Below, in pieces: positions 12,472 to 15,308 of a DNA stretch of 29,054 nt. Every line of letters starts with the position of its first letter. Position 1 is the first letter of the stretch. The stretch is from a virus. The position numbers and the translations under genes were made by a program. The notes beneath the pieces are model-generated. The model made no database searches. It saw only the letters and a program-made list of their open reading frames with translations, and was not told the DNA's origin. The stretch lies in the UHGV virus genome UHGV-0296494, one strand, 5' to 3'.

Positions 12472-12822
12472 TCAATTGATGCGTTCGCGCGCTGTTTTTG
12501 CTTTATGACAGGGCCAGCACAGACTCTGCAGGTTACTGTCTGCATCCGTGCCACCATGAGCTTTCGGAATGATGTGGTCCACAGTTCTGGCTTCAACGGC
12601 TCTCCCATTGCGCAGGCAGTTCTGACACAGATGATTATCACGCTTCAGTATGCGCGCACGTATGGCATCCCATTTCGAGCCATAGCCACGCTGGTGGCGG
12701 CTCAGTCCGCGTTGATGCTGTACCCATCCTTCGCCACGATGTTTATCGCAGTAACCAGAACTGTCTGTGGTTGTACCTGCACATCCACGCTTACGGCAGG
12801 CGCGTGGGATTCGTGGGGGCAT
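12472..12822 (-). CDS. HNH endonuclease (phage packaging-associated)
   Basis: Contains CxxC...DHIIPKAHGGTDADSNLQSLCWPCH, an HNH motif with zinc-binding cysteine pairs. The track ORF starts at a TTG at 12921; trimmed to ATG 12822, which has a GGAG SD 6 nt upstream. Confidence 0.85.
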   Translation of the reverse strand: MPPRIPRACRKRGCAGTTTDSSGYCDKHRGEGWVQHQRGLSRHQRGYGSKWDAIRARILKRDNHLCQNCLRNGRAVEARTVDHIIPKAHGGTDADSNLQSLCWPCHKAKTARERIN

Positions 12823-12942
12823 ATGTACTCCAATGAAGAAGCCACCGACATAGCCTCCTCCATTCATAGTGAAACTATTTTCATCTACCCAGTAATGAAT
12901 TCTTTGTAGAGTTGTGATCAATACAACTCACTAATGGAGAGG

Positions 12943-12964
12943 CTTGTCCAACACGTTGGACAAG
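12943..12964. repeat. Perfect 22-bp palindrome CTTGTCCAAC-AC-GTTGGACAAG
   Basis: Read directly: 10-bp arms are exact reverse complements. Further GGACA motifs follow at 12983 and 12996. Lies in the divergent junction upstream of the HNH gene. Confidence 0.6.
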
Positions 12965-13044
12965 TTTCCTGTTTGATTTACTGGACACTATAGAAGGACA
13001 GAATGCCTTCATCACTCGAATAACATCAATTAAGGAGGTTCAAC

Positions 13045-13167
13045 ATGTTTCATTCCACAAATCATCAGGCTGTAATTATGGCTGCATCAGCTTGTGCCAC
13101 AGACCTTTTCCGCTTCACTTTGAGCCTGATTCATTTCTACCTGACCGGCTCGCCTCTATCTTTTTAA
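13045..13167 (+). CDS. Hypothetical 40-aa protein with near-consensus ribosome-binding site
   Basis: TAAGGAGGT at 13031-13039, 5 nt before ATG 13045. Translation MFHSTNHQAVIMAASACATDLFRFTLSLIHFYLTGSPLSF-stop. Not in the ORF track (under 60 aa). Confidence 0.3.
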   Translation: MFHSTNHQAVIMAASACATDLFRFTLSLIHFYLTGSPLSF

Positions 13168-13483
13168 TCCCCGCTTTATCCAAATTGCATTGCCAGAATG
13201 CCGACAACAGACTGACATTCAAATCCTGACTACCTCCGATAGGCTGAGCATCCACCTATATAGTTTTAATTTTCATCAATCCATTTAACTATCGTTTAAT
13301 TGTTGTCACATAGGATTCTGCCGTTTTTAACAATGAAGAAACAGGAAGCTGTATTACAGAAAGTGCTACTACTGTATCCCGATGCGATGTATGTAATGTG
13401 AGTCAGATAATGGCACAGGATGTGGTGATGTGGCAGTCTGGAACACAGGATATATTGTCAGAATAAGACCCGTAGGAATAAAA

Positions 13484-13810
13484 ATGAAAAGACGCCTTTT
13501 ACTACTTTTTCTGTTATCTGTCCTGGCAGTGGGATGCTCGCAGCAAAAAGCTGATGAGCCCCGGCAATTAGTGACGGTGTATCCACGATATCCGGAATAT
13601 GCTGCAGCAAATTATATCAAGGGGCTGGTTGAGGTTAAGTTCGATATTGGTGCTGATGGGACTGTGACACGGATCGTTTTTCTCCGCTCAGAGCCTCATA
13701 ATTTGTTTCGTGATGAAGTGGTGAAGGCCATGGCGAAATGGCGATTTGAAAAGAATCGCCCCTGTCAGGGAGTGAAGAGACAATTTATCTTTACGCCGTC
13801 ACGTCCTTGA
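13484..13810 (+). CDS. Lipoprotein with TonB C-terminal-like domain (putative moron)
   Basis: Trimmed to the internal ATG 13484 (AGGA SD 6 nt upstream). N-terminus MKRRLLLLFLLSVLAVGC is a lipoprotein signal with lipobox LAVG-C. The rest (YPEYAAANYIKGLVEVKFDIGADGTVTRIVFLRSEPHNLFRDEVVKAMAKWRF) matches the TonB C-terminal motif pattern. Confidence 0.65.
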   Translation: MKRRLLLLFLLSVLAVGCSQQKADEPRQLVTVYPRYPEYAAANYIKGLVEVKFDIGADGTVTRIVFLRSEPHNLFRDEVVKAMAKWRFEKNRPCQGVKRQFIFTPSRP

Positions 13811-14173
13811 TGCTTCCAGGTAGAGAGGGGCTGGAAGCAGGAGAAAAATGAAAGAGCCAGCGGTTATATTTTTGTCATGGCTGACGAGGAATGATGGAAG
13901 AAGGCGTTGTATGCCACACAACGCCTCACTGTTCATTTCTTCTTTTTCTCTGGTGGAACCCGATGAATAAGAGTTGCACTGGTTTCCGATGAGATGGCGA
14001 TATACTCGGGCAAAGTATGCTGGCAGTTTTCCAACTGGTCAAAAATACCTGCTCTCGTCTGTTGCAATGCCTGCAGCATGCGGCGGCAATGCGCCTTGCT
14101 TTTACTAACCATCTTTCCTTCCTCTATCAGTCGCTGCGTGAACTCATCATGGAATACCAGGTAAATGCGGATG

Positions 14174-14425
14174 TTATCGGTTTTGGCTACGCAGCATAGT
14201 ACAAAACGGACAGGTGCATCCCGGGACGGGGGAGGCGTCACATGTCCCTGTGATGGTTGTTCCGGGTAATGTACTGTGTGGGGCATAAAAATGTCCGATA
14301 ATTTTACTTTCTACCGCAGTTAGTTGATTCGTTGGTCCTGGTAGCACATTGGGCGAGGATTTAAATGCCAGGCAACTGAAGGATGATGTCGCAAGGGAGA
14401 TAGCGAGAATATTTCTGATTTTCAT
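14174..14425 (-). CDS. Hypothetical small secreted protein (83 aa)
   Basis: Internal ATG at 14425 of ORF 14174..14494(-) gives MKIRNILAISLATSSFSCLA-FKSSP..., a basic N-terminus plus hydrophobic core like a Sec signal peptide. Weak SD; overlaps another ORF; lies in the conserved right-end region next to cos. Confidence 0.2.
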   Translation of the reverse strand: MKIRNILAISLATSSFSCLAFKSSPNVLPGPTNQLTAVESKIIGHFYAPHSTLPGTTITGTCDASPVPGCTCPFCTMLRSQNR

Positions 14426-14573
14426 TTGATGATGCCTCTGTGTGAAATGACGGTAAACGACGCACTTGTGCCGGCACATAATAGCAAGCACCATAATAGA
14501 TCAGATTCGATTCTTGCTGTAAGTGATAATTATTCTCGTTTTCGGGTCCTTTCCGTCGATCCAACAGGTTACG

Positions 14574-14745
14574 GGGCGGCGACCTCGCGGGTTTTCGCTA
14601 TTTATGAAAATTTTCCGGTTTAAGGCGTTTCCGTTCTTCTTCGCCGTAACTTAATGTTTTTATTTAAAACACTCCCTGAAAAGAAAGGAAACGACAGGTG
14701 CTGAAAACGGGCTTTTTGGCCTCTGTCGTTTCCTTTCTCTGTTTT
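14574..14745 (+). other. cos: Lambda-type cos site: cosN 12-nt cohesive-end sequence at 14574-14585 plus cosB terminase/IHF binding region
   Basis: CAGGTTACG|GGGCGGCGACCTCGCGGGTTTTCGCTATTTATGAAAATTTTCCGGTTTAAGGCGTTTCCGTTCTTCTTCG matches the lambda right-end/left-end junction as I remember it. R-site-like repeats (CGTTTCCGTTCT; AGGAAACGACAG...CTGTCGTTTCCT) precede nu1. Confidence 0.85.
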
Positions 14746-14762
14746 TGTCCGTGGAATGAACA

Positions 14763-15282
14763 ATGGAAGTCAACAAAAAGCAGCTGGCTGACATTTTCGG
14801 CGCGAGTATCCGTACTATTCAGAACTGGCAGGAGCAGGGAATGCCCGTTCTGCGAGGCGGTGGGAAGGGTAATGAGGTGCTTTATGACTCTGCCGACGTC
14901 ATAAAATGGTATGCCGAAAGGGATGCTGAAATTGAGAACGAAAAGCTGCGCCGGGAGGTTGAAGAACTGCGACAGGCCAGCGAGACAGATCTCCAGCCAG
15001 GGACTATTGAGTACGAACGCCATCGACTTACGCGTGCGCAGGCCGACGCACAGGAGCTGAAAAATGCCAGAGACTCCGCTGAAGTGGTGGAAACCGCATT
15101 CTGTACTTTCGTGCTGTCGCGGATCGCAGGTGAAATTGCCAGTATTCTCGACGGGATCCCCCTGTCGGTGCAGCGGCGTTTTCCGGAACTGGAAAACCGA
15201 CATGTTGATTTCCTGAAACGGGATATCATCAAAGCCATGAACAAAGCAGCCGCGCTGGATGAACTGATACCGGGGTTGCTGA

Positions 15283-15308
<26 letters not shown>
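14763..15308 (+). CDS. nu1: Terminase small subunit Nu1
   Basis: 181 aa, MEVNKKQLADIFGASIRTIQNWQEQGMPVLRGGGKGNEVLYD..., essentially lambda Nu1. Confidence 0.97.

What the first reader, a model, noticed from the sequence alone, without database searches (positions are those of the whole stretch)
13484..13810. TonB C-terminal-domain lipoprotein encoded near cos (candidate lysogenic-conversion moron)
The 108-aa product has a lipoprotein signal peptide with lipobox LAVG-C followed by a domain matching the TonB C-terminal motif pattern. It is transcribed independently in the AT-rich junction, at the position where lambdoid phages often carry morons such as bor near the right end. A periplasmic TonB-C-like lipoprotein could interfere with TonB-dependent uptake (for example colicin or phage entry, or iron transport), acting as superinfection exclusion or a fitness factor.
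Basis: inference. Interest (0 to 1): 0.55.

Follow-up and report, generated by a model that had tools for sequence, protein, structure and literature searches.

The report
Prophage lipoprotein that mimics TonB
A small, widespread prophage gene (also in classic phage 21) encodes an outer-membrane-anchored copy of only the receptor-binding end of TonB; it is expressed in lysogens and probably jams TonB-dependent gates, but nobody has tested that.

Summary
Window 13484-13810 (+) encodes a 108-aa protein with a lipoprotein signal peptide (MKRR, hydrophobic core, LAVG-C18) and a complete TonB C-terminal domain. Pfam TonB_C scores E=7e-13. Residues 23-103 align without gaps to E. coli TonB 150-230. 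The AF2 model superposes on TonB from the BtuB and FhuA complexes at about 1 Å.

The gene is already annotated. It is 100% identical to phage 21 gene CPT_21_73 and occurs in 1225 of 5426 complete E. coli genomes, including ST131 and LF82. It is under purifying selection (dN/dS 0.13).

In 128 phage loci, homologues down to 36% identity sit after the spanin genes and before the terminase genes, on the same strand. Published RNA-seq of LF82 shows the identical allele transcribed 8-fold above the silent prophage background, so it behaves as a moron.

Several divergent homologues carry near-perfect Fur boxes and their own terminators. This allele has neither.

The most likely mechanism is inferred, not shown: a TonB decoy held under the outer membrane that binds TonB boxes without energy coupling. 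I found no functional study.

In this window the gene's native upstream region (bor/iss, lysis genes) is replaced by an inverted HK97-like prophage arm.

The parts
13484..13810 (+). CDS of the 108-aa TonB_C lipoprotein. It is identical to phage 21 CPT_21_73 / UMO75484.1, RefSeq WP_000830178.1 'TonB family protein' and LF82_160 'TonB fragment'.
13474..13477 (+). Ribosome-binding site AGGA, 6 nt before the ATG.
   Evidence: Sequence. The same site is annotated in phage 21.
13484..13537 (+). Lipoprotein signal peptide (residues 1-17) plus the lipidated Cys18 (codon 13535-13537). The lipobox is L-A-V-G-C and residue +2 is Ser, which predicts Lol sorting to the outer membrane.
   Evidence: Sequence. 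The Cys and lipobox are conserved in divergent homologues. Sorting is inferred from the +2 rule.
13538..13549 (+). The four residues after the lipidated Cys (S19-K22) that have no equivalent in the TonB alignment. Together with the non-strand residues up to about P26-R27 they form a tether of roughly 8-10 residues that would keep the domain just under the outer membrane.
   Evidence: AF2 model: pLDDT is below 60 for residues 1-20, and the first strand is at 28-30. The tether role is an inference.
13550..13792 (+). TonB C-terminal domain, residues 23-103, equivalent to E. coli TonB 150-230. It includes the YP motif (Y36-P37) and strand beta3 (residues 94-103), the strand that pairs with TonB boxes in TonB.
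   Evidence: The role of beta3 comes from PMC11658791.
13456..13464 (+). Candidate extended -10 element TGtCAGAAT. It is homologous to TGtTAGAAT and TGtTAGTAT in the 72%-identity and P0037-type homologues, where an operator-like palindrome or Fur box follows directly. It is weak and unproven.
   Evidence: Inference only.
13336..13466 (+). Remnant of the small upstream ORF (phage 21 CPT_21_72, 45 aa). Its first two codons were lost at the junction.
13335..13336 (.). Breakpoint. To the left is the HNH-iss intergenic region of an HK97-like prophage, ending 12 nt before where iss would start. To the right is phage-21-like DNA. The microhomology is 1-2 nt.
13812..13838 (+). Hairpin with an 8-bp stem just after the stop codon and no U tract. 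It is not a canonical terminator.
14544..14573 (+). cosQ (14544-14550) and the right cohesive end, placed by homology with the end of the phage 21 genome.
14763..15308 (+). Terminase small subunit Nu1, the first gene of the packaging module downstream.

Best explanation
This is a genuine, selected prophage accessory gene (a moron). [quoted passage not shown] It exposes to the periplasm, on a tether of about 10 residues, a complete TonB C-terminal domain and nothing else. It has no inner-membrane anchor, no ExbB/ExbD-coupling segment and no proline-rich rod.

The most likely mechanism is that it acts as an unenergised TonB mimic. Its beta3 edge strand would pair with the TonB boxes of TonB-dependent transporters such as FhuA, FepA, BtuB and CirA, and possibly with the TonB boxes of incoming group B colicins. 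That would compete with the scarce cellular TonB and uncouple these gates. The expected results are lower sensitivity to TonB-dependent phages and colicins (exclusion) and some damping of TonB-dependent uptake.

What is shown: domain identity, fold, lipobox, purifying selection, conserved position after the lysis cassette, and expression in an uninduced lysogen. What is inferred: outer-membrane location, TonB-box binding, and the phenotype.
For: Domain and fold
- Pfam TonB_C E=7e-13 and TIGR01352 are both above their cut-offs.
- Residues 23-103 align without gaps to TonB 150-230, retaining Y163/P164, G174, F180, G186, P198, F202, W213, P220 and F230.
- The AF2 model has pLDDT 97-98 over the domain.
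- It superposes on TonB in the BtuB:TonB complex (2gsk_B, rmsd 1.0 Å, TM 0.92) and the FhuA:TonB complex (2grx_C, rmsd 0.9 Å).
- Strand beta3, which binds the FhuA TonB box by beta-augmentation in TonB (PMC11658791), is present at residues 94-103.

Precedent
- Over-expressed periplasmic TonB domain inhibits iron import through TonB-dependent transporters in E. coli. This is Howard et al. 2001, as cited in PMC9841981.

Lipoprotein signal
- It is conserved across alleles that are only 35-72% identical.

Selection and spread
- dN/dS is 0.13 against the 72% allele.
- The gene is present in 1225 of 5426 complete E. coli genomes and in 51,003 index blocks of the assembly collection.

Expression
- The identical allele in LF82 is transcribed 8-fold above prophage background without induction, while its neighbours are silent (PMC9928086).

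Link to iron and TonB physiology
- Near-perfect Fur boxes (15-17 of 19; TGATAATnATTATCA) lie 9-73 nt upstream of four divergent subfamilies, one of them a chromosomal copy in Serratia.
- Phage 21 and the EC958 prophage also carry sitABCD, a TonB-independent Fe/Mn importer.
Against: - No experiment on this protein or any homologue was found.
- There is no hit in PADLOC defence models.
- TonB residues implicated in TonB-box contact are changed: Q160 to Y33, Q162 to R35, R166 to Y39. Binding is therefore not guaranteed.
- A constitutive TonB inhibitor would be costly for iron-hungry ExPEC lineages that nevertheless keep the gene.
- Fur-induced expression of a pure inhibitor exactly when TonB is most needed looks paradoxical, especially for the chromosomal homologues.
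- Expression in LF82 is modest and does not change between LB, DMEM and macrophages.
- This allele has no Fur box (best match 10 of 19) and no recognisable promoter.
Confidence: 0.5

Rival explanations
1. The biochemistry is the same (TonB-box binding), but the role belongs to the phage's lytic cycle. The gene is read mainly as the last gene of the lysis region from the late promoter. It would make infected, not-yet-lysed cells refractory to TonB-dependent irreversible adsorption, so that progeny or competitor phages are not wasted or admitted. This is the logic of T5 Llp.
For: - The gene is co-oriented with the late genes and lies directly after the spanin genes in 87 of 128 phage loci where a lysis gene could be recognised. 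The lysis cassettes are of at least four unrelated types. The gap is often only 70-250 nt.
- The late transcript must cross this region to reach Nu1.
- No consensus promoter precedes this allele.
Against: - The gene is expressed in uninduced LF82 while the adjacent endolysin, Rz and terminase genes are at background.
- Homologues carry their own Fur-box promoters and intrinsic terminators.
- Chromosomal, non-prophage homologues exist in Serratia, Erwinia and Raoultella.
- The receptor of these phages is not known to be TonB-dependent; this was not tested here.
Confidence: 0.2
2. It is an iron-starvation accessory factor, not an inhibitor. A Fur-controlled outer-membrane lipoprotein would use a TonB-like domain to organise or tune TonB-dependent transport. 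It might hold unliganded transporters' TonB boxes so that scarce TonB is spent on loaded ones, or dock periplasmic binding proteins under the receptor.
For: - Fur boxes lie upstream of four divergent subfamilies, one of them a chromosomal copy flanked by housekeeping genes.
- The gene travels with sitABCD and iss in the phage 21 / ST131 / LF82 prophage lineage, a set of host-adaptation morons.
- It is retained in 23% of E. coli genomes, including iron-dependent ExPEC.
Against: - No precedent is known to me for a positive role of an unanchored TonB C-terminal domain; engineered ones inhibit.
- This allele lacks the Fur box, and its expression does not change in DMEM or macrophages.
Confidence: 0.15
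3. It is an envelope or surface lipoprotein whose TonB-like fold serves another purpose, such as binding peptidoglycan or another outer-membrane protein to stabilise the envelope, or contributing to serum or host resistance like its neighbour Bor/Iss.
For: - It is adjacent to bor/iss in 45 of 128 loci and in EC958, LF82 and phage 21.
- From my own knowledge, not verified here: TonB's C-terminal domain has been reported to associate with peptidoglycan and with Lpp and OmpA.
Against: - The whole TonB-box-binding domain, including beta3, is conserved at 38-41% identity to TonB with no insertions.
- The Fur-box association points to iron and TonB physiology.
- There is no similarity to Bor/Iss (one search lists only TonB_C).
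Confidence: 0.08
4. It is a spanin component, as PHROG 1267 is labelled ('Rz-like spanin'), or a dead fragment of a captured host tonB gene, as labels such as 'partial tonB-like' and 'TonB fragment' imply.
For: - PHROG 1267 matches at E=5e-43 and carries a spanin label.
- The gene sits next to Rz/Rz1.
- Several records name it as a fragment.
Against: - Every examined phage has its own complete Rz/Rz1 pair upstream.
- The product is a globular TonB_C domain, not a short proline-rich o-spanin.
- dN/dS is 0.13, and the gene has acquired and kept a lipoprotein signal peptide. The family spans 35-100% identity, and the gene is transcribed.
Confidence: 0.03

Closest known systems
C-terminal domain of E. 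coli TonB (residues ~150-239; PDB 1U07, 1XX3, 2GSK, 2GRX)
   Same: Same Pfam and TIGRFAM family. The sequences are 38-41% identical without gaps, and the alpha/beta fold superposes at about 1 Å. The YP motif, the aromatic core residues and strand beta3, which binds TonB boxes, are all present.
   Different: The N-terminal transmembrane anchor that couples to ExbB/ExbD is absent, and so is the proline-rich spacer. The domain is instead tethered to the outer membrane by a lipid anchor. The protein ends at the equivalent of TonB residue 235. Q160, Q162 and R166 are replaced by Y, R and Y. Scores against the full-length TonB equivalog models are far below their cut-offs (69 against 315 bits).
Engineered periplasmic TonB fragments that are dominant-negative (Howard, Herrmann, Stratilo & Braun 2001, J Bacteriol 183:5885)
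   Same: Both place a TonB C-terminal domain in the periplasm without energy coupling. The engineered fragments inhibit import through TonB-dependent transporters (as summarised in PMC9841981). This is the functional model proposed here.
   Different: Those fragments are laboratory constructs: soluble, over-expressed and made of authentic TonB sequence. This is a natural, lipid-anchored, diverged gene carried by phages. I could not read the original paper.
Phage superinfection-exclusion lipoproteins that act on TonB-dependent receptors from the periplasmic side (T5 Llp on FhuA; Cor of phi80/N15)
   Same: All are small phage-encoded outer-membrane lipoproteins expected to act on the periplasmic face of TonB-dependent transporters and block entry of other phages.
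   Different: There is no sequence relationship; only TonB_C is detected. Llp and Cor are specific to one receptor and also block TonB-independent T5. A TonB mimic would be generic for all TonB boxes and would not be expected to stop TonB-independent phages.
Lambda Bor / Iss, the neighbouring moron lipoprotein
   Same: Both are outer-membrane lipoprotein morons at the same module boundary, between the lysis genes and cos. Both are expressed from the prophage.
   Different: The fold is unrelated and the strand is opposite. In LF82 bor rises by about 7 log2 units in DMEM and macrophages, while this gene does not change.

Membership tests
TonB_C domain family (Pfam PF03544 / TIGR01352) | Profile score above the curated cut-off | tested here: met
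   PF03544 scores 49.2 bits against 24.6. TIGR01352 scores 47.4 against 27.1.
TonB_C domain family (Pfam PF03544 / TIGR01352) | [quoted passage not shown] | tested here: met
   The AF2 model has pLDDT 97-98 over the domain. Foldseek against 1u07, 2gsk_B and 2grx_C gives TM (target-normalised) 0.91-0.92 and rmsd 0.9-1.5 Å. Y36-P37, F53, F75, W86 and F103 align with TonB Y163-P164, F180, F202, W213 and F230.
Bona fide TonB energy transducer (NCBIfam PRK10819 equivalogs) | N-terminal inner-membrane anchor that couples to ExbB/ExbD | tested here: not met
   The N-terminus is a cleavable lipoprotein signal peptide. The mature protein is 91 residues and is essentially the domain alone.
Bona fide TonB energy transducer (NCBIfam PRK10819 equivalogs) | Proline-rich periplasm-spanning spacer, and a full-length equivalog score | tested here: not met
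   No spacer is present. The best equivalog score is 69 bits against a cut-off of 315.
Bacterial lipoproteins (Lgt/LspA substrates) | Basic n-region, hydrophobic h-region, and a lipobox ending in Cys at position 15-35 | tested here: met
   The sequence is MKRR-LLLLFLLSVLAVG-C18. The Cys is invariant in the nine closest homologues. Lipidation and outer-membrane sorting themselves cannot be tested here.
Phage moron (autonomously expressed accessory gene) | Transcribed in the uninduced lysogen, independently of neighbouring phage genes | tested here: met
   This rests on published RNA-seq of an identical allele. LF82_160 is 8-fold above prophage background, with flanking genes at background (PMC9928086 Table 1 and S1). 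It was not measured for the strain this window comes from.
Phage moron (autonomously expressed accessory gene) | Own promoter and terminator flanking the gene | tested here: inconclusive
   This allele has no sigma-70 consensus site, only a weak extended -10 candidate, and a hairpin without a U tract. Homologues have Fur-box promoters and canonical terminators.
Fur regulon | Fur box overlapping the promoter | tested here: not met
   The best match in the 120 nt upstream is 10 of 19. Divergent homologues score 15-17 of 19. LF82 expression does not change in DMEM or macrophages.
o-spanin / Rz1-like (label of PHROG 1267) | Short proline-rich outer-membrane lipoprotein paired with an i-spanin and serving as the phage's only o-spanin | tested here: not met
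   The protein is a globular TonB_C domain. Separate Rz/Rz1 pairs are present upstream in phage 21 and in all examined relatives.
Llp / Cor receptor-blocking exclusion lipoproteins | Sequence homology to Llp or Cor | tested here: not met
   Pfam at E<=1 returns only TonB_C, and PADLOC returns nothing.
Llp / Cor receptor-blocking exclusion lipoproteins | Blocks phage or colicin entry through a TonB-dependent receptor | not testable with these tools
   This needs plating and colicin assays.

The most novel reading that the evidence does not exclude
Small outer-membrane-anchored TonB mimics form a family, mostly Fur-controlled, carried both by temperate phages of Enterobacterales and by some chromosomes. 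When TonB-dependent receptors are derepressed, these proteins would occupy TonB boxes and close all TonB-dependent gates at once to phages, colicins and microcins. In the phage 21 / ST131 / LF82 lineage the cost would be offset by the co-carried TonB-independent SitABCD importer. This would be a generic form of receptor-level immunity that works by molecular mimicry of a host energy transducer.
Probability: 0.25. Interest if true: 0.75.

Novelty: new variant of a known kind. Interest (0 to 1): 0.55.

Why it matters
The gene is in about a quarter of complete E. coli genomes, including the pandemic ST131 lineage, AIEC LF82 and the classic phage 21. It is expressed from the prophage, yet it has no tested function.

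If it is a natural dominant-negative TonB, three things follow.
- It would be a new, receptor-independent way for prophages to exclude TonB-dependent phages and colicins.
- It would affect susceptibility to siderophore-conjugate ("Trojan horse") antibiotics and to phage therapy cocktails that use TonB-dependent receptors.
- It would offer a ready-made natural inhibitor for studying the TonB-transporter interaction.

The hypothesis can be tested directly with standard plating, colicin and iron-uptake assays.

Tried and rejected
- **Spanin reading (PHROG 1267 label).** Rejected. The protein is a globular TonB_C domain, and the phages have separate Rz/Rz1 pairs.
- **Dead tonB fragment.** Rejected. 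dN/dS is 0.13, the signal peptide is conserved, and the gene is transcribed.
- **Longer GTG start at 13430.** Rejected. It buries the signal peptide and no annotation uses it.
- **Known defence system.** PADLOC gave no hit.
- **Known RNA element in 12800-14900.** Rfam gave only a chance-level miRNA match.
- **Viral structural relatives.** BFVD gave no match with E <= 0.001.
- **Consensus promoters.** No + strand site was found upstream in the window or in phage 21.
- **Fur box in this allele.** Absent; best match 10 of 19.
- **Literature.** Ten full-text searches found no functional study. They found only the phage 21 genome announcement, which does not comment on the gene, and the LF82 moron table. 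Howard et al. 2001 (PMC99666) is not held.
- **The search for related loci.** Broad alignments failed because no stretch was conserved enough. Queries P0041, P0050 and P0071 found no viral loci.
- **Complex prediction with a TonB-box peptide.** Not possible, because only window or search-derived sequences may be submitted.
- **The junction at 13335/13336.** It was not found in any of 5426 complete E. coli genomes, nor in the 10 contexts shown of the 150 contigs read for the exact protein.
Full report

Yes. Window 13484-13810 (+) is an open reading frame of 108 codons with an ATG start and a TGA stop at 13808-13810. An AGGA ribosome-binding site lies at 13474-13477. A longer in-frame GTG start at 13430 is possible in principle, but it would bury the signal peptide. 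Neither RefSeq nor the curated phage 21 record uses it.

The N-terminus, MKRRLLLLFLLSVLAVG-C18-SQ, has the basic, hydrophobic and lipobox layout of a bacterial lipoprotein. Ser at +2 predicts sorting to the outer membrane; this is an inference from the +2 rule.

The rest of the protein matches Pfam TonB_C at E=7.3e-13 (49.2 bits, cut-off 24.6) and TIGR01352 (47.4 bits, cut-off 27.1). Against PDB sequences, residues 23-103 align without a single gap to E. coli TonB residues 150-230 at about 40% identity.

An AlphaFold2 model built on 26 family sequences has pLDDT 97-98 over the domain. It superposes on TonB taken from the BtuB:TonB complex (2gsk_B, rmsd 1.0 Å) and from the FhuA:TonB complex (2grx_C, rmsd 0.9 Å).

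The gene ends 763 bp before the position that corresponds to the right cohesive end of phage 21 (window 14573). Nu1 starts at 14763. GC content is 0.38-0.48 here, against about 0.53-0.55 in the flanking structural genes.

**2. What is it, and is it already known?**

The DNA from 13336 to 14573 is 100% identical to the right end of the classic lambdoid phage 21 (OL657228). There the gene is CPT_21_73, 'TonB C-terminal domain protein'. It lies after S21, R21 and Rz/Rz1 and the oppositely oriented bor, and before cosQ.

- The same gene (>=95% identity) is in 1225 of 5426 complete E. coli genomes, annotated 'TonB family protein'. These include ST131 strain EC958, AIEC LF82 and APEC strains.
- The exact protein is indexed in 51,003 blocks of the assembly collection.
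- Among phage records it is in phage 21, ev017, Perceval and three ECOR-derived phages.
- A 72%-identical allele is in Stx1a-converting phages and relatives. A 41%-identical one is in a Klebsiella phage.
- The window allele and the 72% allele differ with dS 1.37 and dN 0.18, giving dN/dS 0.13. The signal peptide, linker and domain all show far fewer non-synonymous than synonymous changes.

The gene is therefore real and selected. It is not a decaying fragment of a captured tonB, despite labels such as 'partial tonB-like' or 'TonB fragment'.

**3. The wider family**

A full HMMER scan of 1.84 billion representative proteins gave 2795 hits. Most are ordinary TonB proteins.

Among the best hits are many proteins of 105-135 residues that match end to end at 31-46% identity. 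They start with a lipobox (FLMGC, FLLGC, LISAC, LLVGC and others) or with a type I signal peptide. All of these keep the TonB_C hallmark residues.

BFVD, a library of predicted viral protein structures, holds no significant match to the model. This fold is therefore uncommon among catalogued viral proteins.

**4. Genomic position**

I fetched 127 IMG/VR loci for four subfamilies (36-100% identity) plus one Serratia prophage, 128 loci in all. I mapped lysis and packaging genes around the homologue in each.

- A recognisable lysis gene lies upstream on the same strand in 87 loci.
- A terminase or HNH gene lies downstream on the same strand in 86 loci.
- Both are seen in 70 loci.
- There is one exception, a mosaic with a second lysis cassette (L090).

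The arrangement holds whatever the endolysin type: SAR lysozyme, lambda-R-like GH24, a chitinase-like enzyme or GH108. It also holds whatever the packaging type: lambda Nu1/A, HNH with P27-type TerS and TerL, or Terminase_2. In the distant subfamilies the gene starts only 70-250 nt after Rz1.

Every examined phage has its own Rz/Rz1 pair. The 'Rz-like spanin' label of PHROG 1267 is therefore best read as an annotation carried over from the neighbouring gene.

Chromosomal, non-prophage copies exist in Serratia grimesii (between a ycgN-like gene and dsbB/nhaB), in an Erwinia species and in Raoultella planticola.

**5. Is it independently transcribed?**

Simple consensus scans find no + strand sigma-70 site upstream in the window or in intact phage 21. 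No canonical terminator follows the gene; there is only an 8-bp hairpin at 13812-13838 without a U tract. Because the gene is co-oriented with the late operon, the Q-modified late transcript must read through it on its way to Nu1.

Two independent lines nevertheless support autonomous expression.

*Published RNA-seq.* In AIEC LF82 the Perceval prophage encodes the identical protein. 'LF82_160, TonB fragment' is listed among the morons, at 8-fold above the prophage background in uninduced LB cultures (PMC9928086, Table 1). The supplementary table shows log2 values of 5.0-6.6 in all conditions, while the endolysin, Rz and terminase genes on either side sit at or near the floor of 2.3. There is no significant change between LB, DMEM and macrophages, whereas bor rises by about 7 log2 units.

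*Moron architecture in homologues.*
- Near-perfect Fur boxes lie 9-73 nt before the start codon. Examples are TGATAATTATTATCA, TGATAATCATTATCA, TGAAAATCATTATCA and TGATAATGATTTTCA.
- They score 15-17 of 19 against the Fur consensus. The background probability of >=16 is 6e-6 per position.
- They occur in four divergent subfamilies, one of them the chromosomal Serratia copy.
- Canonical rho-independent terminators follow the gene in two subfamilies.

The 72% allele has a perfect palindrome, GAATAAG-A-CTTATTC (13 of 19 to Fur), just after an extended -10 element, TGtTAGAAT. The window allele keeps TGtCAGAAT (13456-13464) but has lost the right half of the palindrome. Its best Fur match is 10 of 19. 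This fits the flat expression seen in LF82.

**6. How it most likely works**

[quoted passage not shown] The prophage protein has the whole domain, including beta3 at residues 94-103.

It has none of the parts that transmit energy. There is no inner-membrane anchor and no proline-rich rod, and full-length TonB equivalog models score far below their cut-offs. A lipid anchor and a tether of about 10 residues would instead hold it directly under the outer membrane, where TonB boxes emerge.

[quoted passage not shown] 2001, as summarised in PMC9841981). I could not read the original paper.

The best-supported mechanism is therefore a natural, membrane-tethered dominant-negative TonB. It would occupy TonB boxes and damp TonB-dependent processes, with protection against TonB-dependent phages and group B colicins as the likely selected benefit.

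I give this about 0.5, for these reasons:
- Q160, Q162 and R166 of TonB are replaced.
- An inhibitor has an obvious cost for iron uptake.
- Fur-induced expression of a pure inhibitor in the homologues is not straightforward to rationalise.
- No experiment exists.

Rival explanations:
- The same biochemistry serving the lytic cycle (0.2).
- A positive or tuning role in iron uptake (0.15).
- An unrelated envelope or serum-resistance role (0.08).
- A spanin or a dead fragment (0.03).

**7. Context peculiar to this window**

The window consists of two prophage packaging and head modules placed head to head. The left one is an HK97-like module on the minus strand: HNH at 12472-12921, P27-type TerS, TerL, portal and onward. 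The right one is a lambda-like module on the plus strand, starting with Nu1 at 14763.

They meet at 13335/13336. The left arm ends 12 nt before the point where iss starts in ordinary genomes. The right arm starts at codon 3 of the small ORF upstream of the TonB_C gene. Only 1-2 nt of microhomology is shared.

No complete E. coli genome of 5426 contains this junction. It is also absent from the 10 contexts shown for the exact protein, out of 150 contigs read.

Consequently bor/iss, the lysis genes and pR' are absent upstream of the gene here. Only 148 nt of native upstream sequence remain. The iss upstream region now points towards the gene. I cannot tell whether this is a real rearrangement or an assembly chimera.

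**8. Comparison with what is known, and novelty**

The protein is a member of the TonB_C domain family, with all tested features met. It is not a TonB energy transducer, because the anchor, the spacer and the equivalog scores are not met.

Functionally its closest relatives are the engineered dominant-negative TonB fragments and the phage exclusion lipoproteins Llp and Cor. It has no sequence relationship to Llp or Cor.

The gene itself is already annotated and has been listed as an expressed moron. What is new here:
- Its recognition as one member of a lipoprotein or secreted TonB-mimic family.
- The fixed position of that family after the lysis cassette.
- The Fur boxes and terminators in divergent members.
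- The co-carriage with sitABCD in the phage 21 lineage. All 7 phage records with this allele have sitA, but about 19 sitA phages lack the gene.

I rate it a new variant of a known kind, with interest 0.55. It is ordinary as an annotation. It is also a widespread, expressed, functionally untested gene with a concrete and easily tested mechanism.

Noticed in passing
window 12922-13484 (breakpoint 13335/13336): Two prophage packaging modules are joined head to head: an HK97-like HNH/TerS/TerL module on the minus strand and a lambda-like Nu1/A module on the plus strand. The join falls 12 nt before where iss would start and at codon 3 of phage 21 orf72, with 1-2 nt of microhomology. The junction is in none of 5426 complete E. 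coli genomes. It removes bor/iss, the lysis genes and pR' from upstream of the TonB_C gene and points the iss upstream region at it. It may be a real rearrangement or an assembly chimera.
   Followed up: partly
L084-L098, L101, L103, L104, L112-L143 (upstream of the TonB_C homologues): Near-perfect Fur boxes (TGATAATnATTATCA type, 15-17 of 19) lie 9-73 nt before the start codon in four divergent subfamilies, one of them a chromosomal Serratia copy. Canonical intrinsic terminators follow the gene in two subfamilies. The window allele has neither.
   Followed up: yes
L110 (phage 21 21967-25416) and L111 (EC958 1299152-1302601): Phage 21 and the icd-integrated ST131 prophage carry sitABCD (TonB-independent Fe/Mn import) and iss/bor as well as the TonB_C gene. 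All 7 phage records with this allele have sitA, but about 19 sitA-carrying phages lack the gene. The link may therefore be shared ancestry and not a functional coupling.
   Followed up: partly
PHROG 1267: The PHROG family containing this protein is labelled 'Rz-like spanin'. The members are TonB_C lipoproteins encoded next to genuine Rz/Rz1 pairs, so the label looks like an annotation error.
   Followed up: yes
window 13848-14286: Conserved ORFs overlap on opposite strands between the TonB_C gene and cos. They are orf74 (13848-13970, +), orf75 (14017-14199, +; PHROG 3744; RefSeq WP_000881610.1) and a 117-aa ORF (13933-14286, -; PHROG 4843). Different records annotate different ones, and all are of unknown function.
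   Followed up: no
L101 (Raoultella planticola), L102 (Erwinia sp.), L103 (Serratia grimesii): Small TonB_C lipoprotein homologues (37-39% identity) sit in apparently non-prophage chromosomal contexts. In Serratia the neighbours are a ycgN-like gene and dsbB/nhaB. In Erwinia the gene is next to an araB-like gene.
   Followed up: partly
L100 (NZ_SJEX01000172.1, 418 bp, labelled Modestobacter excelsi): A 418-bp contig in an actinobacterial assembly encodes the first 67 residues of this protein at 100% identity. This is most likely E. coli or phage contamination of that assembly.
   Followed up: no
L090 (IMGVR_UViG_2563367007_000005): This is the only locus where the TonB_C homologue is followed, not only preceded, by an Rz/Rz1 pair. 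It is a mosaic with two lysis-region remnants before Nu1.
   Followed up: no
PMC9928086 supplementary table S1 (Perceval region): In LF82 bor (LF82_0244) rises from log2 about 4 in LB to about 11 in DMEM and macrophages. The adjacent TonB_C gene stays flat. The two neighbouring lipoprotein morons are therefore regulated quite differently.
   Followed up: no
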